A stretch of DNA of 10,505 bases, taken from NCBI GenBank assembly GCA_020137815.1, contig WFME01000035.1, positions 1-10,505 on the forward strand, read 5' to 3'. This document shows, in pieces, positions 1 to 10,505 of this stretch. The number at the start of each line of letters is the position of its first letter. The stretch's first letter is position 1. The notes under the pieces are model-generated. The model was not told the DNA's origin. It worked only from the letters and a program-made list of their open reading frames with translations, and searched no databases. This DNA is from Hormiphora californensis. Taxonomy: Eukaryota > Animalia > Ctenophora. The position numbers were made by a program, and so were the translations under genes.

Positions 1-625
1 ATCGTAGCAATAAGTACTTTCGCCACAGAAATCTTTAAAACCGACTAGTTGACGAGGAACTTGACAGGGCGCCGCGGAAACTCGTTAGGATCCAATGATT
101 TCCTACCGACAGCACAGATAGACTACCGTAGCACCATACACAACTCGGTAGGAGATCCGTGAAATAGGAAGGAATAATGTGGGTTCTATCGTTTGTGTTA
201 TAACCGGAAAAAAACTGAAACAAACTCTTTGTTGTGTGAAATAAAAGTAATAAAAGAAATACAGGAGTCTTTAGTACAAAACCCCATAAAAACCATGACG
301 TAACACAACCATGTGCTCCGTTTCTTGATAATTTGCTACAGCTAATCAGCTACAAAGATTTTAGAAAAAAGGTCCCCTCTGTAATAGTCAAATCAGATAT
401 CAGTATTGGATCGACTGCAACTTGTACAGTTGTCTAAAAAATTACTTGCCACAACCCCAAACTCTTTGTATCTACTTCGACTATTACTACAACCGGACAG
501 CAAAACAGCAGACAGAGACAAGGTACGCCACTAATCAGCAGCCACTAGTATTCACCACGATCACACTCATAACACAAACGATAGCGGACACAACACCTCT
601 AAAAGGTCCCAGAGTGCATAAACAC

Positions 626-631
626 TTTATT
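626..631 (-). promoter_or_regulatory. Putative polyadenylation signal AATAAA overlapping the stop codon
   Basis: The minus strand reads ACT TAA TAA AG at the end of the CDS. Confidence 0.4.
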
Positions 632-3600
632 AAGTCCTTCTCTTCTTCCGGCCAGAGAGAAGCTGTTTCACCGATTTGTTAGACCGTCTAACAGACCGTT
701 TGTTAGACCGTTTGGCAGGGACATTTTCTTTCTCTTCATCAGACTCAGACAGTATCAATGAATCCTCAGATTCCTCCTCATTGTTGTCTTCAGAATCAAT
801 ATCCTCCACAATATCTTCCGGATTTGGCCTCTCACTATCGATCCCTAGGCATACGAAGTTTAGATACAAGAGTGAATGTCAAAAACATCATCTTTAATTC
901 ACTCTATACTATAGCTGTCAATTATCATGTACATATATAACAACTCACCCTTTTCATGATTACAGAGACATCTCATGAGTACCTGGACGTACTCAACATC
1001 AACTTTCGTCCGCCGGTCCAAGTAATAGTGCTCGAGACCTGTTTCTGCCGCGTGACCTGCACTTGCAGCGATGGTTTTCACAATCTGCAATTAAAGAAAC
1101 AAAAATTATTTTTTAGCTTGGGTCAGGTTGAATCAAAACAGACAAACGATTAGCGGAATTGTCCCAAAACTGTCTCGGACATGCAACTATTAAATATTTT
1201 ACCTGTTCTTCCTTGTCACGAGCTCGAATCAGGTCAATACTCAGGGTCCAGAAATACTGTCGCAACGCAGTGGGAGAAATTTTCCTCCCAGCCGTGAAGA
1301 GATCTGATAGTCCAGCTTCCTTCAACCCTTTGATTAGCTGAATTGGAAATTTGATTAAATTGGAATAAATGCCGCTTTCTGTTTTTGAGAGCAAGTATTA
1401 GTAGGCCGAAAGAGATACCTAACTCCTAACGGAGTTTAATCTATTTAAATCCTAATCCAAATTATAACTAACAAATGAGTCACATCAAACGGGCCTTACC
1501 AATCGGCACGCATTGTTGGTTGTCCTTGGCGTCCCATCCCACCGGCACAGCAGCTGTTGACAGCCTTCTGGTTGATTTTGAATCACCTTTGCCATCACCT
1601 AAAATGGGGTCTCGAGAAGGGGCTGAATGGGGCAATCCTTGCGCTTACGAGCGCAGTGGTTATCCAAACTCAACAGCATTTAGTAACATACCTGTAAGTA
1701 GGCTGAAACCAACTTCATCATATTTTCTGTAAGAAATATGTTGGGTGCCCCTTTGCTGCGAATGGTCTTCAGACAACCGAATTGTTTCAGCACGGTCTGT
1801 AAGGAAAGCACAATGATTATATATATTATCAATAAACCTGGGTTTATATGTCGCGGGTCACCCGCTAGGGTGATTCGCTAGACCATATACTGCCCGACCT
1901 GCGAAGCAGGGAGGGTTGTATATGGTATAAAACCCGACCAAAGGGAGGGGTTTATACTTTATATAAGCAAGGATTTATTGATTATAAGTTTTAGCGGCAA
2001 AAACATCCATGATTTTTATAGCGGGCGGGGTATATATCACCCGCTAACATTTATATATATACATAACAGGCGGGAGGTAGTTTGGCCCCCATTGGTAATA
2101 ATTGAGCCCAAAATTTACGTTATTCATAAAAAGTTTAAACTTACATTTTCCGGATCATCATGTAACTTAACACGTACTCGGAACAGGGTACCTCTTTCAG
2201 TTTCTACGGATACCTGAAAGATCAATGGCAGGGTTTAGAAATTTGGATATGGTAGACTAAAGATTGTCTTGTCCGTAGTGTCCGCTATGTGATGCACATA
2301 GCAACCGTACGTGAATACGTGTTCTTGAGTCTAGAGGCAGTGAAATTTCTAGTTCTTACCCTGTCGATTACATCCTTCAGGCTCACTGTAAGCGGCTCAC
2401 TTGCCCTAGTCGGTCGGCAGAGCAGCATGCCGAAATAAATCAGGCGCACAGCTCTGCTGTGTAATTCAGGGGTCCATCGTCTTCTCTGGATTTCTGAAGC
2501 AACTTCGGAAAACCTCTTACATTCTAACATCGCTAACCAATCCTTTAAGGCAAACATATGCCGCGACTTAGTCTCCTTATCGATCTCCAGTTTGGATTTC
2601 CTGGAAACAAAAGAGCTAGGTCAAATTACTGAAACGACCCTTAGTAATATTGCAGGTGCAAAATTCATTATCGACCTTCGCCTACCTCTCTGATTCTTGT
2701 CTCTTTTTGTATAAGTTCAGGTCTGTTGAAAGTATATCAACATGGTCTCCGTTCAAAAACTGTTTGTACTGCAGGAACTTTATAAACTGAAACACAAAAA
2801 ATGTTAGTTGCTTAGAATGTTCCACTGGTAGGGTATCAGTGGGTTATGATGAAACTTGACTGGTGGGATATCAGTGGGTTATGATGAAACTTGACTGGTA
2901 GGATATCAGTGGGTTATGCCCTAGTTATACCACCGATATCCTACCGGCAGAGGTTTAGGACCAGGCAGTACAGGTGGGATATCAGTGGGTTATGATGAAA
3001 ATTGACTGGTAGGATATCAGTGGGTTATGCCCTAGTTATACCACCGATATCCTACCGGCAGAGGTTTAGGACCAGGCAGTACAGGTGGGATATCAGTGGG
3101 TTATGATGAAACTTGACTGGTGGGATATCAGTGGGTTATGACCTAGTTATACCACCGATATCCTACCGGCAGAGGTTTAGGACCAGGCAGTACAGGTGGG
3201 ATATCAGTGGGTTATGATGAAACTTGACTGGTGGGATATCAGTGGGTTATGACCTAGTTATACCACCGATATCCTACCGGCAGAGGTTTAGGACCAGGCA
3301 GTACAGGTGGGATATCAGTGGGTTATGATGAAACTTGACTGGTGGGATATCAGTGGGTTATGACCTAGTTATACCACAAATATCTCATCGGATAGAACAT
3401 ACACACGCCGCACGGTTTTTACTTACGTTCAGCAGGTGAGAACATGTCTGAGACTGGAGAGAAGGTCCTGCGATTCTTGTGCCATTTAGATTATTGTTTG
3501 GTATTAATGTTATTACCACCTTGATTCCATCCGTTGTGAGGAATTTCTCCAAAAATTGCTCACCATTATCTGGATCCACGTTAACTACTCTACACTGGAA

Positions 3601-6600
3601 ATACAATTTGATTAATCGATTTTTGAGACTTAAATGAACAGAACCTTTATAACCAGATTGATATATTAGTTACTCACCCATTCTTTTAATAACTGATATA
3701 AGCGATTGAACTCAGTCTTCTTCTGTTGATCTGATACAGTTGCAAGTTTCCGGTGTTCCACCCACCCTTCAAGCGCAGTTTTCATAGTCCATCGATAGTG
3801 GTCGATGATCACTAGGTTTTGACCGAGACGCGACGAGTCTAAAACCATCTGAAACATAAAAGGCTGATACTATGATAGCATAAATAGTGCTATATATTAT
3901 CCTTTAAGACCAGATATTTTCACGAGCAGCTTGCTAATACACCATGCATTTTGAGAAAAACTTACTGCACTGGCTGGTCTTCGCGGAACCAAAATTCCTG
4001 ACTGGTCGAAATTTCCCACTTGCAGCTGTTCCCAGTTAGCACTAAAAACAAAATTTTGATTAAAGCTACGAAGTGAAAGCTTTACATAGTAACACAATAG
4101 TCTTTCTATAGCAACTTTACCTCGTTACAATATCATCGTTACTCAATAGCTCCATGTATGAAGAAGAAGGAGGTGAAGCCATGTTCCTGAAGAAACCATG
4201 TTCCTGAAGATAGAATATTGTTACACCAAACAGCTACGTTATCGGTTAGAAGTAGCTAGTCGTGAGAAACTGAAATAGACTTTAGACAGATGAGACCGTG
4301 TGATTTACACTGAATTCCGCGGTAGAAAGGGGTTGAAGGTCTCTCTCTCCCAACAAAGCCAAGGATGATGAAGGCTGCTCCTCATTATTTCCAGCTGCTT
4401 CTACTACGGTATAGCCACTGAGGTTTTCCAGTTCTTCCCTGGCTCTAGCTGCTTCATTCTCTTCCTGAAGATAGAAAATTGTTACACCAAACAGCTACGT
4501 TATCGATTAGAGGTAGCTAGTCGTGAGAAACTGAAATAGACTTTAGACAGATGAGACCGTGTGATTTACACTGAATTCCGCGGTAGAAAGGGGTTGAAGG
4601 TCTCTCTCTCCCAACAAAGCCAAGGATGATGAAGGCTGCTCCTCATTATTTCCAGCTGCTTCTACTACGGTATAGCCACTGAGGTTTTCCAGTTCTTCCC
4701 TGTCTCTAGCTGCTTCATTCTCTTCCTGAAGATAGAAAATTGTTACACCAAACAGCTACGTTATCGAATAGAGGTAGCTAGTCGTGAGAAACAAGTGACT
4801 TGTAAACTTGATATGCGGCTCCTCATAACCCACTGATATCCCACCTGTACTGCCTGGTCCTAAACCTCTGCCGGTAGGATATCGGTGGTATAACTAGGGC
4901 ATAACCCACTGATATCCTACCAGTCAATTTTCATCATAACCCACTGATATCCCACCTGTACTGCCTGGTCCTAAACCTCTGCCGGTAGGATATCGGTGGT
5001 ATAACTAGGGCATAACCCACTGATATCCTACCAGTCAATTTTCATTATAACCCACTGATATCCCACCTGTACTGCCTGGTCCTAAACCTCTGCCGGTAGG
5101 ATATCGGTGGTATAACTAGGGCATAACCCACTGATATCCTACCAGTCAATTTTCATCATAACCCACTGATATCCCACCTGTACTGCCTGGTCCTAAACCT
5201 CTGCCGGTAGGATATCGGTGGTATAACTAGGGCATAACCCACTGATATCCTACCAGTCAATTTTCATCATAACCCACTGATATCCCACCTGTACTGCCTG
5301 GTCCTAAACCTCTGCCGGTAGGATATCGGTGGTATAACTAGGGCATAACCCACTGATATCCTACCAGTCAATTTTCATCATAACCCACTGATATCCCACC
5401 TGTACTGCCTGGTCCTAAACCTCTGCCGGTAGGATATCGGTGGTATAACTAGGGCATAACCCACTGATACCCTACCAGTCAATTTTCATCATAACCCACT
5501 GATATCCCACCTGTACTGCCTGGTCCTAAACCTCTGCCGGTAGGATATCGGTGGTATAACTAGGGCATAACCCACTGATATCCTACCAGTCAATTTTCAT
5601 CATAACCCACTGATATCCCACCTGTACTGCCTGGAAGTTTATGCATACTACATATCTTTAACTACACATGCTGACGTGAGTCACGTGACCCTACCTTTAC
5701 TCTGTTGTTGACGAGTGCTCCGTACTCTTTGTTGTAATCTTTTTCCGTCTCGAAGAATGACGTAAACGTCATACATGAATACTTCTCAATAACCTTTAGT
5801 GCCTGGCGGCGAAAGGTAAAAGGATCATACTCAATTTATGAGAATTTAGTAACAAAAACGGACGTAAGGAAAATGTTTGCAGGCCCGAATTGATGTCACT
5901 CACCTGGGGATGCGATTTTCGAATGTGTATTGAACAATAGTTTTCGGAGTAACTTCTGGCACAGATGTAACATATCACGGGTGTTTTTTTACTTCTTAGC
6001 TTTGATCGTTCAACAGCTGGGTCCAAGCCTGAAAATCGAGAGTTGTGTTAGGATCGAGCAGTAGCAAAGAAAATGTACAGCAGTGAGTTTCCAGCAGAGA
6101 GTTAGAACCAGGTGGGTAGTTATACCACAGATTATATCCACACAGTACATTCTGTCATTTACCTTTTAAAGTTATAACTTTACACCGGGTCTTGCCGGTC
6201 TTAGAGTCGTACACATGTCTAAAAAGGCTTTGCAGTGACATTTCCTCACTGCAATGGGGACACTTTCTTTTCTCACCCTAAGAAAAGAGCATGAATTATA
6301 ACATCATTTTGATTTTTATCAAAAAAATCTTACACCCGACACGGGTACAAAGAATTCTAGCAAATTCAGTTTTGAAGCGAAGTGAAGTTGGTGATTGGTG
6401 AAAGGAATACATACTCGCTTCAAGTTTTTCTCGATTCTTCTTTCTGAAAATAATTGAAACTAAGTTAGATAGATTGAGATAGAGAGGGATGGAGGAGCGA
6501 GATATATGAAGAGAGAGAGAGAGAGACAGAGAGAGAGACATTTCAGAAGAAGAGAATTCACCAAGAATTACTTACTAGTATTTGGAGATTGGGGCAACTG

Positions 6601-8208
6601 CTCAGCTACATGTTCCGCAAGTTCCGGGGCCGCAAGTTCCGGGGCCACGCGTTCCGCAAGTTCCGGGGCCGCAAGTTCCGGGGCTACGTGTTCCACAAGT
6701 TCCGGGGCCGCAAGTTCCGGGGCTACGTGTTCCGCAAGTTCCGGGGCTACGTGTTCCGCAAGTTCCGGTGCCGCAAGTTCCGCAAGTTCCGGTGCCGCAA
6801 GTTCCGGGGCTACGTGTTCCGCAAGTTCCGGGGCCGCAAGTTCCGGGGCTACGTGTTCCACAAGTTCCGGTGCCGCAAGTTCCGGGGCTACGTGTTCCAC
6901 AAGTTCCGGTGCCGCAAGTTCCGGGGCTACGTGTTCCGCAAGTTCCGGGGCCACGCGTTCCGCAAGTTCCAGGGCCGCAAGTTCCCTGGCTACGTGTTCC
7001 GCAAGTTCCAGGGCCGCAAGTTCCGGGGCTACGTGTTCCACAAGTTCCGGTGCCGCAAGTTCCGGGGCTACGTGTTCCACAAGTTCCGGGGCCACGCGTT
7101 CCGCAAGTTCCAGGGCCGCAAGTTCCGGGGCTACGTGTTCCGCAAGTTCCGGGGCCGCAAGTTCCGGGGCTACGTGTTCCACAAGTTCCGGGGCCGCAAG
7201 TTCCGGGGCTACGTGTTCCGCAAGTTCCAGGGCCGCAAGTTCCGGGGCTACGTGTTCCGCAAGTTCCGGGGCCGCAAGTTCCGGGGCTACGTGTTCCACA
7301 AGTTCCGGGGCTACGTGTTCCACAAGTTCCGGGGCCACGCGTTCCGCAAGTTCCGGGGCCGCAAGTTCCGGGGCTACGTGTTCCACAAGTTCCGGGGCCG
7401 CAAGTTCCGGGGCTACGTGTTCCGCAAGTTCCGGGGCCGCAAGTTCCGGGGCTACGTGTTCCACAAGTTCCGGGGCCGCAAGTTCCGGGGCTACGTGTTC
7501 CACAAGTTCCGGGGCCGCAAGTTCCGGGGCCACATGTTCCGGGGCTACGTGTTCCGCAAGTTCCGGGGCCGCAAGTTCCGGGGCTACGTGTTCAGCCTCA
7601 TTTCCACATTCGACCTGTACAAGGGGTGTGTTAGTCACTATTTAGTGTGCCAATTGTGTGATGTCACAGGTGTGATAATATGTGTGGCAATATAATACCC
7701 CAGATGGTACAATTTTTTAATATTTTGAAGAAGCAACATGCTGACACCGGGGTCTCAGATAATTAACAGCTGATGACTTTTCTAGCGTTTCTTCTAGGCG
7801 GTTCTTACCTCATAAGTCCCCTTTTGTTTGACATCGTTAGTCCATTTAAATAACCCGTCTTCATCGAAGATTACTTTGTACCTCAAGCCTGAGAATAATA
7901 AATTTCAATTAATATGTCTGTGTAGCATAGTGCATAATACTACGGTTAATGTAGTTCATTATCATAATAATAAATTTGTTCAGCTTTGAGCTCAAATACA
8001 GATTGTTCAGTTTTTTCATTTAGATATAAACCAAGAACAGATAGAGAGAGAGGGGGGGATAGAGATATCGGGGGGGGGGGGGGATAGAGATATCGTTTTC
8101 ATTACCTCTTTTTTTGGTTGCTACTATGGTAGCATCGTACCAATAACCTTGATATTTAGCTATTATCTTATCGTGCTTAGAAAACTTCAGCTGTTTCCTA
8201 GTTGACAT
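630..8208 (-). CDS. Spliced gene (21 exons, ~1169 aa): Tudor-like + Zn-finger + tyrosine recombinase (phage-integrase family; Crypton-like) protein
   Basis: Hand-built model; every intron is GT..AG and phases are consistent. Exons: 8208-8106, 7888-7809, 7614-6576, 6443-6415, 6277-6163, 6028-5904, 5802-5695, 4725-4570, 4464-4309, 4203-4121, 4041-3966, 3848-3678, 3594-3427, 2786-2686, 2600-2360, 2213-2145, 1796-1692, 1598-1500, 1337-1203, 1084-949, 844-630. Total 3510 nt with no internal stop, ending in TAA at 632-630. Many minus-strand ORFs in the track are these exons plus intron read-through. Uncertain points: exon 13 may contain a small in-frame intron, and an upstream exon is possible (CAG acceptors just before ATG 8208). 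Confidence 0.85.
949..2786 (-). CDS. Tyrosine recombinase region (exons 14-20 of the gene above)
   Basis: The spliced translation shows YR motifs in canonical order: LLCRPT-R-ASEPLTVSL (R at 2407-2405), CL-K-TIRSKGAPNIFL (K at 1769-1767), LLCRWDGTP, ISPTAL-R-QYFWT (HxxR box with T in place of H; R at 1262-1260), IAASAG-H-AAETGLEH-YY (H at 1054-1052, YY at 1027-1022). Motif recognition by eye; no HMM was run. Confidence 0.8.
1830..1980. mobile_element. Short palindromic MITE-like element, copy 1 (intron 16)
   Basis: Begins caataaacc and ends ggatttattg (imperfect terminal inverted repeats). Internal hairpin accatatac...gtatatggt. Homologous to 8266-8390. Confidence 0.6.
2824..3384 (+). repeat. 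Intronic tandem array of a 111-bp unit (~4+ copies, preceded by 35-bp subunits)
   Basis: ccgatatcctaccggcag recurs at 2933, 3044, 3155 and 3266 (period 111). A 35-nt subrepeat gactggtRggatatcagtgggttatgatgaaactt is at the left end. Confidence 0.95.
4201..4791. repeat. 261-bp tandem duplication (~2.3 copies) of an exon+intron unit
   Basis: ttcctgaagatagaa occurs at 4201, 4462 and 4723. Each full unit holds a 156-nt phase-0 exon and a 105-nt intron, with few substitutions. Confidence 0.95.
4824..5633 (-). repeat. Intronic tandem array of the same 111-bp unit in inverted orientation (~7.3 copies)
   Basis: cccacctgtactgcc recurs every 111 bp from 4840 to 5617 and is the reverse complement of the 2824-3384 unit. 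Copies are nearly identical. Confidence 0.95.
5904..6277 (-). CDS. Two zinc-finger-like motifs (exons 5-6)
   Basis: Exon 5 gives CPHC-SEEMSLQSLFR-H-VYDSKTGKTR-C (C2HC-like). Exon 6 gives CYIC-ARSYSENYCSI-H-IRKS-H (Cx2C-x11-Hx4H, C2H2-like). Confidence 0.65.
6480..6540. repeat. (GA)n-rich microsatellite in intron 3
   Basis: gagagagagagagagacagagagagagac and an adjacent purine-rich stretch. Confidence 0.7.
6608..7593. repeat. Coding minisatellite of 24-nt and 15-nt units, encoding (ELAEHVAP/ELVEHVAP/ELAAP)n on the minus strand
   Basis: Interspersed gcaagttccggggctacgtgttcc (24 nt) and gcaagttccggggcc (15 nt) units. It lies within exon 3, bounded by ttgtacAG|GTC (7614) and ACTA|GTAAGT (6576) in the phases the neighbouring exons require. 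Confidence 0.95.
7809..8208 (-). CDS. N-terminal Tudor/Royal-family-like domain (exons 1-2)
   Basis: Spliced peptide MSTRKQLKFSKHDKIIAKYQGYWYDATIVATKKRGLRYKVIFDEDGLFKWTNDVK fits the Tudor pattern F..G/H..V/I.A.(W/Y)...(W/Y)Y.A.I......Y.V.F.DG, with candidate aromatic-cage residues. Confidence 0.7.
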
Positions 8209-8265
8209 TCTCCTGATGAGAACCTGATGAGACAGAATTAGCAATAATATGCAAATGTATACAAC

Positions 8266-8390
8266 CAATAAACCCGGGCATGTATGTAGGGGGTCATCCG
8301 CAAGGATAATTCGCTACACCATATACTGCCCGACCTGAGAAGCAGGGAGGGTGGTATATGGGATAAAAAGGGTGGGGCACGGATTTATTG
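8266..8390. mobile_element. Short palindromic MITE-like element, copy 2 (just upstream of the ATG)
   Basis: Same termini, and shares attcgcta.accatatactgcccgacctg.gaagcagggaggg..gtatatgg.ataaaa with 1830-1980. Confidence 0.6.
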
Positions 8391-9081
8391 CTAACAAATA
8401 TACGTGCTTTACAAAGTGGGCAGACGTTCACCAGCTAGGGAAAAAACAATAATAATGATAATAGAATATGCTTCATGCTAGTTTCATACATAAATATCGG
8501 CACAATATGCTTCATGCTAGCTTTAAACACACTATCAGCATTCTAGTTCAGCACACCAACCCTGAACGAGTTTGGGCATGTGACGGAAGGATGTAAAACT
8601 AAGAGCGTCACCAAGGTAGCGTGTTCCATTGGATGTATCGTACCGCATCTAGGATGAATTGAACATCGGGGTACCTTTCATTGCTAAAGGCTTCACTAAA
8701 GAAGGAAACAACACAACACGATGCATAACTAAATAAACACACAACACAAGATGCATCGGGAAAACGTCAAAGTCTGGGTGCCTTTCATTGCTAACAATTC
8801 GTAGTTTTAGCGCGCACGACAGGTTAGGGCTATCCTTTAGGGCGTGGTTAGGTTTGGTTTGGGGATATCGGTTAGGGTTATCGATTCTCTAACAGATACC
8901 GTTTAGTTTACTCAAATTGGCAATGTGGTTGCGTAGCTAAAGCCGTTGGAAAAAAGTTGGTCTAAGTGTACACTTTTGGTAGCGCACACCTGTAAACAGG
9001 TTGCAAGGCACCCAGATTATAATCACGCCCGATGCATCGCCAAACTTTCTGCAAAACACTCCGCGAAATTGGCATACGTTG

Positions 9082-9113
9082 CAGGCCCCTTATAATATAA
9101 TATAAGGGGCCTG
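9082..9113. other. Perfect 13-bp inverted repeat with a 6-bp AT spacer
   Basis: caggccccttata-atataa-tataaggggcctg, read directly from the sequence. Confidence 0.85.
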
Positions 9114-9149
9114 GAGGGAATACCGCGCTGGGGGGGAATACATAATCAA

Positions 9150-9359: not shown

Positions 9360-9872
9360 TAACCCTAACACCTAAACCTAACCAACCTAACCCTAAACCC
9401 TAACCCTAACCCTAACCCTAACCCTAAACCCCTACCCCTAACCCTAACCCTAACCAACCCTAACCCTAACCCTAACCCTAACCCTAACCCTAACCGCCTC
9501 CTAACCCTAACCCTAACCCTAACCCTAACAACCCAACCCTAACCCTAACCCTAACCCTACCCTAACCCTAAACCTAACCCTAACCCTAACCCTAACCCTA
9601 ACCCTAAACCTAACCTAACCCTAACCCTAACCCTAACCCTAACCCTAACCCTAACCCTCCTAACCCTACCAACCCTAACCCTAACCCTAACCCAACCCTA
9701 ACCCTAACCCTAACCCTAACCCCCAACCCCAACCCACCCTAACAACCCTAACCACCCTAACCTAACCCTAACCCAACCCTAACCCTAACCCTAACCCTAA
9801 CCCTAACCCTAACCCTAACCCTAACCCTAACCCTAACCCTAACCCTAACCCTAACCCTAACCCTAACCCTAA
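9360..9872. repeat. Telomeric repeat tract (CCCTAA)n / (TTAGGG)n, internal to the window
   Basis: About 510 bp of ccctaa units. Variant units occur in the left and middle parts; the run is perfect from ~9777 to 9872. Confidence 0.97.
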
Positions 9873-10069
9873 TTAGAACCAACAGGTTTCCTACCAAGGA
9901 TATCAGTGAAGTTGGTAGGATATCGTAATTTTTCACTTATTTTACCGGTAGTGAAGATTTCCTGCCTCTTTGACAGGTTCCTTCCATTGTCACCGATATC
10001 CTACCAAACGGTTACAACCACTGGTAGGATATCTTTGAAAAGGCTGGTAGGATTTCGGTTGGTTCTAAT
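9872..10069. mobile_element. ~200-bp TIR element (MITE-like) abutting the telomeric tract
   Basis: Perfect 12-bp TIR attagaaccaac (9872-9883) / gttggttctaat (10058-10069), extending to 21/25 matches. Internal ggtaggatatc / gatatcctacc motifs are shared with the 111-bp repeat. No clear TSD. Confidence 0.6.
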
Positions 10070-10505
10070 CGTTGTTGCAGCAGTAACGCGCGTAGATTAC
10101 TAAAATAAAATGCGTCGCGCATGTCTTTTTGAGCGCCGCGCATATTTTTTTAGTTTAATTTTTCTTTTTTAAACGGTTTTTTTTTTCAATTTTTCCAATT
10201 TTTCAATTTTTTCAATTCATATTTCGCGGATTGGAATGCGCTGCAGTCCCCTCATGCGCGCACCCCCGCAACGAGGGGACTGAAGGGAATGCCGCGCGCG
10301 CGTTTGGCCTGAGCCCGGCTGGTCGAAGATAACTTTGCGGCTCGAAAAAACGGCGGTGCTTATCTTTGGCTCCTGTAGTCCGTTTGACTTGATTCTTTCA
10401 ACCAGTTGTTAATGACTGACGATTATCTACCTTGCTGTTTTTGAGAGAAGTTAATTGGACTTAAGGAGGCTGAGCAATAGCCGTTGAAATGGGTTTGTTT
10501 TTCAA

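What the first reader, a model, noticed from the sequence alone, without database searches (positions are those of the whole stretch)
630..8208. Hidden 21-exon gene fusing a Tudor-like reader and Zn fingers to a tyrosine recombinase
Seen: the ORF fragments splice through 20 GT-AG introns into one intact ~1169-aa frame with Tudor-like, Zn-finger-like and YR motifs. Known: eukaryotic YRs mostly come from Crypton DNA transposons, DIRS/Ngaro/VIPER retroelements, some polinton-like viruses and fungal Starship captains; Tudor domains often read methylated Lys/Arg. No RT/RNase H or capsid gene is visible, and the many introns argue against a retroelement. Inference: either an intron-rich YR DNA element that targets integration through chromatin marks (analogous to chromovirus integrase chromodomains) or a domesticated recombinase. 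I do not recognise this architecture as a named family.
Basis: partly seen in the sequence, partly recalled or inferred. Interest (0 to 1): 0.9.

Follow-up and report, generated by a model that had tools for sequence, protein, structure and literature searches.

The report
Intron-rich recombinase with Tudor-like reader
This DNA hides a predicted 21-exon gene that likely joins a Tudor-like domain and two probable zinc fingers to a DNA cut-and-join recombinase, probably the engine of a jumping DNA element that chromatin marks would steer.

Summary
The gene model holds: 21 minus-strand exons, 20 GT-AG introns, one open frame of 1169 aa. A profile of 83 bacterial tyrosine recombinases (YR) matches the spliced C-terminal half; none of 3000 shuffles reaches its score. 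R902, E905, K950, R1034, H1064 and Y1073 fall on catalytic columns, but Thr1031 replaces the H-x-x-R histidine. A Tudor-knot profile matches aa 8-44 (0 of 3000 shuffles). Both zinc fingers score below Pfam cut-offs. One contig of a relative, from a run guessed to be RNA, shows the exon 15-16 join, skips exon 17, and is long enough to hold the Tudor half. No RNA covers the link between the halves, and a rival acceptor 17 nt downstream in exon 10 would break the fusion. Only three relatives were found, all unnamed exon fragments. No element ends, reverse transcriptase or capsid gene were found. Best reading: a Crypton-type YR DNA transposon gene with a chromatin-reader module; domestication is the main rival. 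The scan holds no look-alike stretch; it noted a different spliced YR beside telomere repeats in an amoeba.

The parts
630..8208 (-). Predicted 21-exon gene, 1169 aa
   Evidence: splice statistics
8106..8208 (-). Exon 1, first part of Tudor-like barrel. An acceptor-like sequence just upstream of the ATG suggests a further 5' exon may exist
   Evidence: Pfam TTD E 0.08; Atlas Tudor/Agenet clusters at 0.79, lead only
7809..7888 (-). Exon 2, rest of Tudor-like domain (profile match aa 8-44 crosses the exon 1-2 junction)
6576..7614 (-). Exon 3, 346-aa A/E/L/P/V/H-rich minisatellite linker
   Evidence: 48 of 48 anchor spacings are multiples of 3 (24, 15, 39, 9 nt); 4 of 6 frames are open, so openness alone proves nothing
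6415..6443 (-). Exon 4, short basic exon
6163..6277 (-). Exon 5, zinc-finger-like motif (C423, C426, H438, possibly C449)
   Evidence: zf-Di19 E 1.1e-4, 22.8 bits, below cut-off 27.5
5904..6028 (-). Exon 6, C2H2-like motif (C475, C478, H490, H495)
   Evidence: zf-C2HC_2 E 1.1e-3, 19 bits, below cut-off 27
5695..5802 (-). Exon 7
4570..4725 (-). Exon 8, acidic linker; in-frame stop 8 codons past its donor
4309..4464 (-). Exon 9, tandem copy of exon 8 (261-bp unit; 1 of 156 nt differs)
4121..4203 (-). Exon 10. Starts in a 17-bp tandem duplication that offers a rival acceptor at 4186; holds M645 (4182), a possible start of a 525-aa YR-only protein
3427..4041 (-). Exons 11-13 (4041-3966, 3848-3678, 3594-3427), likely the core-binding region before the catalytic domain
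   Evidence: extended YR profile aligns from aa 748 (E 1.1e-5)
2686..2786 (-). Exon 14
2360..2600 (-). Exon 15, YR box I (R902, E905)
   Evidence: global alignments; motif shared by P0001-P0003; not significant against bacterial YRs alone
2145..2213 (-). Exon 16
   Evidence: matched at 55 of 64 nt by contig X2 record 2, with loose ends at both exon borders
1692..1796 (-). Exon 17, candidate catalytic Lys K950; absent from the relative's contig
1500..1598 (-). Exon 18
   Evidence: start matched by the X2 loose end
1203..1337 (-). Exon 19, box II with T1031-x-x-R1034
949..1084 (-). Exon 20, H1064 and nucleophile Y1073
   Evidence: Atlas nearest named cluster PF00589 at 0.91, 24% of members
630..844 (-). 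Exon 21, acidic then basic tail, stop and overlapping AATAAA (631-626)
   Evidence: X1 contig identical over 612-831
9082..9113 (.). Perfect 13-6-13 inverted repeat, the geometry of a YR core site; candidate element end, or just a hairpin of a dispersed repeat
   Evidence: only arm of 10 bp or more in the window; 0 of 200 simulated sequences reach 12 bp; sister hairpin at 10241-10285 has a 19-nt loop
9360..9872 (.). (TAACCC)n array, 88.5 copies, telomere-type; link to the gene not shown

Best explanation
This is a predicted 21-exon gene that likely makes one protein joining a Tudor-like domain and two probable zinc fingers to a tyrosine recombinase, most likely the transposase of a Crypton-type DNA transposon whose reader module would steer it to marked chromatin. 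Shown: the splice model, the YR-like C-terminal half, the Tudor-like N-terminus, relatives that share exon 15, and splicing at the exon 15-16 border in one relative. Inferred: the recombinase would excise the element as a circle and reinsert it by site-specific recombination at a short target through Y1073, as proposed for Cryptons; the zinc fingers would add DNA contacts; the Tudor-like barrel would bind methylated histone tails; the repeat linker is a spacer; skipping exon 17 or using the rival exon 10 acceptor would give non-cutting forms that could limit activity.
For: One open frame across 20 canonical introns. YR profile 15.4 bits against a best shuffle of 10.9, 0 of 3000; single exons score at most 2.2 and unspliced frames at most -3.2. 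Six of seven active-site positions kept (list of seven from PMC13465315 passages), whereas domesticated DUF3504 genes all lost the Tyr and second Arg (PMC3212892 passage). All eukaryotic YRs known to that 2011 paper are on mobile elements (section 3). Relatives at 70, 68 and 41% identity, one (P0002) looking damaged, plus a fourth different copy in X2. No AATAAA or ATTAAA between intron 2 and exon 12, and only 105 nt between exons 9 and 10, so little room for two genes; exons 7, 8 and 9 all end in phase 0 and fit exon 10. The X2 contig holds about 799 nt ahead of its exon 10 equivalent; exons 1, 2 and 4-8 sum to 716 nt.
Against: No element ends, target repeat or second copy of this element can be shown; no genome is held. 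Thr replaces a His present in 79 of 83 bacterial YRs and never Thr, so catalysis is not assured. Box I alone is not significant (356 of 1000 shuffles reach exon 15; hhalign P 0.14), and HH probabilities are only 50-77%. The rival acceptor at 4186 stops the frame at aa 653 and exposes M645 in a good start context. The upstream part of the X2 contig was not seen. The one spliced relative lacks exon 17. Repeats in introns 7, 13 and 16, an exon duplication and a minisatellite show long residence at one place. The Tudor match covers aa 8-44 only and was made with bacterial domains; methyl binding is untested. The species of P0001-P0003 are unknown, so they may be orthologues.
Confidence: 0.45

Rival explanations
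1. A domesticated host gene or small gene family: the fused protein is real but no longer mobile, and works as a chromatin-bound DNA-binding factor or a host recombinase.
For: 20 introns, repeats inserted in three of them, no visible ends. His to Thr change. A relative's contig lacks the exon with the candidate catalytic Lys. Crypton YRs were domesticated several times next to zinc fingers (PMC3212892 abstract and passages).
Against: Catalytic Tyr and both Arg are kept, unlike DUF3504 genes. No named protein relative among 1.84 billion representatives or in the 5.8-billion set, so it is not a widely conserved gene. In P0001 the read-through of intron 15 is about as similar as the exon, which does not point to strong selection between these two copies (not tested statistically).
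Confidence: 0.25
2. Two reading frames, not one protein: exons 1-8 make a 593-aa Tudor/zinc-finger protein that ends at the stop in intron 8, and a 525-aa YR starts at M645.
For: In-frame stop 8 codons past the exon 8 and 9 donors. The in-frame acceptor depends on a 17-bp duplication; the other acceptor is out of frame and precedes an ATG with A at -3 and G at +4. No RNA was laid on exons 4-7 (uninformative).
Against: No poly(A) hexamer and only 105 nt between the halves; phase match; exon 7 can join exon 10 directly in frame; length of the X2 contig.
Confidence: 0.2
3. A recombinase left by a DNA virus or polinton-like element, or a decaying copy that no longer cuts DNA.
For: Some eukaryotic DNA viruses carry YRs (recalled). 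His to Thr change; damaged relative P0002.
Against: No capsid, polymerase or other gene in the window; no relative in IMG/VR; the frame is intact across 21 exons.
Confidence: 0.1

Closest known systems
Crypton DNA transposons in general (Kojima and Jurka 2011, PMC3212892: abstract, sections 3, 5, 8 and passages read)
   Same: YR as the only recognisable enzyme, no RT or DDE transposase; animal Cryptons have no terminal repeats, so unseen ends are expected.
   Different: Tudor-like domain, two zinc-finger-like motifs, long repeat linker, 20 introns, Thr for the box II His; no GCR1_C. No tree could be built.
CryptonV (Kapitonov and Jurka 2012, Repbase Reports; not seen, known from a passage and reference in PMC8869645)
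   Same: YR DNA transposon; some families insert in microsatellites, and a (TAACCC)n array lies 1.15 kb upstream here. I recall animal YRs of this type with T-x-x-R in box II and extra chromatin domains such as SET; this comes from no call.
   Different: No CryptonV sequence was available for comparison; the array is not shown to be a target site.
Glomhopper CryptonA elements (PMC13465315, passages)
   Same: Crypton YR genes with up to 20 predicted introns; same open question of mobile versus domesticated.
   Different: Fungal, single DUF3504 ORF, keep the box II His, no consistent intron positions; here the intron 15 position is shared with relatives.
WOC/ZMYM2-4, KCTD1, KIAA1958 (domesticated DUF3504 genes)
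   Same: Multi-exon chromatin genes that join zinc fingers or other domains to a YR-derived C-terminus.
   Different: They lost the catalytic Tyr and second Arg; this gene keeps both.
Gypsy-10_Ec32 of Ectocarpus and chromoviruses (PMC12477816, passages)
   Same: A Royal-family reader on a transposon protein; the paper calls Gypsy-10_Ec32 the first reported TE with a Tudor domain.

Membership tests
Tyrosine recombinase superfamily | Sequence match to the catalytic domain | tested here: met
   15.4 bits, E 6e-7 for one sequence, 0 of 3000 shuffles; Atlas PF00589 lead. Pfam on single exons gave no PF00589 hit.
Tyrosine recombinase superfamily | Both Arg, the second His/Trp and the Tyr nucleophile | tested here: met
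   R902, R1034, H1064, Y1073 align to the conserved columns; R902 by global alignment only.
Tyrosine recombinase superfamily | His of H-x-x-R (R-H-R-Y tetrad) | tested here: not met
   Thr1031; column holds H 79, Y 3, V 1 of 83 bacterial YRs.
Tyrosine recombinase superfamily | YR fold | not testable with these tools
Crypton (any group) | YR without RT or DDE transposase in the element | tested here: met
   No such Pfam hit in 18 exon peptides or 19 other frames; limited to this window.
Crypton (any group) | Dispersed copies, defined ends, short direct repeat or target | not testable with these tools
   No genome held; no ends recognised.
CryptonF | C-terminal GCR1_C domain | tested here: not met
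   Exons 20 and 21 have no Pfam hit; the tail is low-complexity.
CryptonA / DUF3504 | DUF3504 match | tested here: inconclusive
   No hit on single exons, but PF00589 was also missed at that length.
Domesticated DUF3504 genes (WOC/ZMYM, KCTD1, KIAA1958) | Loss of catalytic Tyr and second Arg | tested here: not met
   Y1073 and R1034 present; feature from PMC3212892 passage.
CryptonV | YR clade and insertion in microsatellites | not testable with these tools
   No reference sequences; only one side of any insertion could lie in the window.
DIRS / Ngaro / VIPER | RT and RNase H genes, long terminal repeats | tested here: not met
   None found; 20 introns.
Polinton-like viruses | Capsid and packaging genes beside the YR | tested here: not met
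   None in window; no IMG/VR relative.
Starship captains | DUF3435 YR at the start of a large fungal element with cargo | tested here: inconclusive
   No DUF3435 hit on single exons; no cargo gene in the window.
Tudor Royal family | Sequence match to the barrel | tested here: met
   21.7 bits, best shuffle 10.8, 0 of 3000; 9 of 10 best named Atlas hits in one clan, scores 0.79.
Tudor Royal family | Aromatic cage that binds methyl-Lys or methyl-Arg | not testable with these tools
   Y19, Y24, F42 and E44/D45 are candidates by recalled analogy with 53BP1; no call tests binding.

The most novel reading that the evidence does not exclude
An undescribed group of eukaryotic YR DNA transposons whose intron-rich recombinase reads methylated histones with a Tudor domain, inserts at telomere-type repeats, uses the 13-6-13 dyad at 9082-9113 as its recombination site, and restrains itself by splicing out the catalytic Lys exon.
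Probability: 0.12. Interest if true: 0.87.

Novelty: new variant of a known kind. Interest (0 to 1): 0.62.

Why it matters
A 2025 paper calls a Gypsy element the first reported transposon with a Tudor domain (PMC12477816, passage). A Tudor-like domain on a tyrosine recombinase would extend chromatin-guided insertion to YR DNA elements, whose mechanism a 2026 review says has not been shown experimentally (PMC13565253, passage). If it is a host gene instead, it would be a rare domesticated YR that keeps its nucleophile. Either way the gene is invisible to exon-level Pfam and to prokaryotic gene callers, so such families are probably undercounted. A site-specific recombinase with a built-in chromatin reader could also be a useful tool.

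Tried and rejected
No RNA holder listed for 600-2820. No contig of X1 or X2 lay on exons 4-7 at 80%; uninformative. The X1 contig ends 14 nt past the AATAAA, but contigs cannot show RNA ends, so I do not count it. Protein searches: A1 among longer proteins none (weak by the tool's own warning); exon 19 frame none; A1 near length 3 of 4891 candidates. P0004 and P0005 were dropped as repeat proteins, leaving 3 of 5 hits. L001 is a bacterial chance match, dropped. IMG/VR: 0 of 34 pattern matches. PDB sequence searches gave HEAT-like repeats by a short motif, weak SH3/Tudor barrels at E 0.1-1.5, nothing useful for exons 2 and 20. PHROGs nothing below E 0.08. Rfam none. The 80 lambda-like loci were too alike and were not used. 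PF05641 found 1 of 301 genomes and was not used for the profile. The long open frames at 6473-7695 are by-products of the minisatellite; the Pfam Mor hit on exon 3 is a repeat artefact. No fold or complex job was run. Eight literature searches found no YR-Tudor fusion; Repbase Reports and subscription papers are outside the library, and I read no supplements, where Crypton domain tables could change the novelty call.

Full report
Gene model. Splice sites fit the consensus far better than background GT and AG sites, though I chose them by eye. Exons are richer in GC than introns (44 versus 37%), and the only exonic AATAAA overlaps the stop. Exon 3 is a minisatellite whose 48 of 48 anchor spacings are multiples of three; it is needed for phase, since exon 2 ends in phase 0 and exon 4 starts in phase 1. 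Exon 9 is a tandem copy of exon 8. The host is a eukaryote with short introns and TTAGGG-type repeats; one 230-nt contig from a seawater run is identical over 612-831 (one study), which suggests a marine organism. No genome is held.

Recombinase. Pfam on single exons found no YR, so I built a profile from 83 distinct YR domains taken from 92 loci. It matches aa 958-1073 of the spliced protein. The region aa 838-1098 scores 15.4 bits; none of 3000 shuffles reaches it (best 10.9), the reversed sequence scores -0.8, single exons at most 2.2, and unspliced frames at most -3.2. The native exon order ranks third of 720 orders, and the two above it keep exons 17-20 in order, so the signal lies there. 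Global and extended alignments put R902 and E905 on box I, K950 near the catalytic Lys, R1034, H1064 and Y1073 on their columns, and reach back to aa 748. Box I alone is not significant. Thr1031 stands where 79 of 83 bacterial YRs have His. The Atlas gave PF00589 as the nearest named cluster for exon 20 (0.91; 10 of 10 best named hits in one clan), a lead only.

N-terminal domains. A profile of 23 bacterial Tudor-knot-like domains from 15 loci hits only aa 8-44 of the protein; aa 1-64 score 21.7 bits against a best shuffle of 10.8 of 3000, most of it from exon 1 (20.0 bits). Pfam TTD (E 0.08), UHRF1 and SH3 chains and Atlas Tudor/Agenet clusters point the same way, each weakly. Exons 5 and 6 have zinc-finger spacing and Pfam hits below cut-off. 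Binding to methylated histones is an inference from the family.

Relatives. Exon 15 found 5 proteins at E up to 0.001 among 1.84 billion; three are true relatives (P0001-P0003, 70, 68 and 41%), all unnamed ENA fragments that stop resembling the protein at the exon border. P0001 continues into a similar intron 15. P0002 looks damaged. In run X2 (guessed RNA, added by species label) one 2666-nt contig matches exon 16 at 55 of 64 nt. Read by hand, its upstream loose end keeps an L-K-D motif in the register of the exon 15-16 join, and its downstream loose end matches the start of exon 18 (21 of 30 nt, 7 of 10 aa), not exon 17 (12 of 30 nt at best). So a relative is spliced, and this form lacks the exon with K950. 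This is one contig.

Is it one protein? For: no poly(A) hexamer between intron 2 and exon 12, 105 nt between exons 9 and 10, phase 0 ends on exons 7, 8 and 9, and about 799 nt of the X2 contig ahead of its exon 10 equivalent, against 716 nt for exons 1, 2 and 4-8. Against: a stop 8 codons past the exon 8 and 9 donors, and a 17-bp duplication that offers a second acceptor at 4186, which ends the frame at aa 653 and exposes M645. Nothing was laid on exons 4-7. I put the fusion at about 70%.

Element or host gene? No other gene lies in the window. The flanks and introns 7, 13 and 16 hold small repeats. Upstream lie a perfect 13-6-13 dyad (9082-9113; 0 of 200 simulations), matching the 11-13 plus 6-8 geometry given for YR sites (PMC3212892 section 3), and a (TAACCC)n array of 88.5 copies. 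A sister hairpin at 10241-10285 with a paired base change but a 19-nt loop suggests the dyad belongs to a dispersed repeat, and the array may do so too. Some CryptonV families insert in microsatellites (PMC8869645 passage). Active Cryptons recombine a short terminal motif with a like target (PMC9977147 passages). Kept catalytic residues and a scatter of diverged copies favour an element; intron load and the His change favour domestication.

Papers. PMC3212892: abstract, sections 3, 5, 8 and passages. PMC8869645, PMC5753468, PMC9977147, PMC13565253, PMC12477816, PMC13465315, PMC13269885, PMC4738411: passages only; the last two added nothing. Eight searches found no YR-Tudor fusion; Repbase was not searchable and no supplements were read. 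The likeness to CryptonV box II motifs and to the 53BP1 cage is recalled. Earlier scan notes hold no look-alike of this window.

Verdict. The gene works most likely like a Crypton transposase with an added reader module, but membership in any named Crypton group is untested. New variant of a known kind; interest 0.62.

Noticed in passing
window 2862-3384 and 4823-5634: Two arrays of one 111-bp unit (4.7 and 7.3 copies, 98-99% matches) in opposite orientation in introns 13 and 7; they could pair as a long stem around exons 8-13. They share short motifs with the element at 9872-10069.
   Followed up: partly
window 9872-10069: MITE-like unit with 25-bp inverted ends (84%) starting right at the end of the telomere-type array; a related short stretch lies at 85-174.
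   Followed up: partly
window 1819-1932 and 8255-8368: Two copies (84%) of a palindromic small repeat, one in intron 16 and one about 50 nt upstream of the ATG. It reminds me of non-autonomous Crypton elements (recalled, untested).
   Followed up: partly
window 186-201 and 569-584: Perfect 16-bp inverted repeat 367 nt apart, just past the stop codon; MITE-like or an element end.
   Followed up: no
window 9060-9130 and 10222-10298: Two related hairpins flank the telomere-type array; a G-C pair in one is T-A in the other.
   Followed up: partly
window 9360-9872: The array is degenerate on the left and pure from about 9777, the reverse of a normal chromosome end on this strand; could be read error, a join, or a microsatellite inside a repeat. 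A short inverted degenerate copy lies at 8822-8880.
   Followed up: partly
window 6605-7593: Variants among exon 3 repeat units look like C-to-T changes at CpG (seen by eye, not counted).
   Followed up: no
L207-L221: Bacteroidota proteins carry one to three Tudor-knot-like barrels, found in 2 of 401, 12 of 401 and 3 of 254 genomes in three overlapping samples.
   Followed up: no
L084-L115: Near-identical lambda integrase sequence sits on small contigs of many unrelated GTDB genomes, likely spike-in contamination.
   Followed up: no
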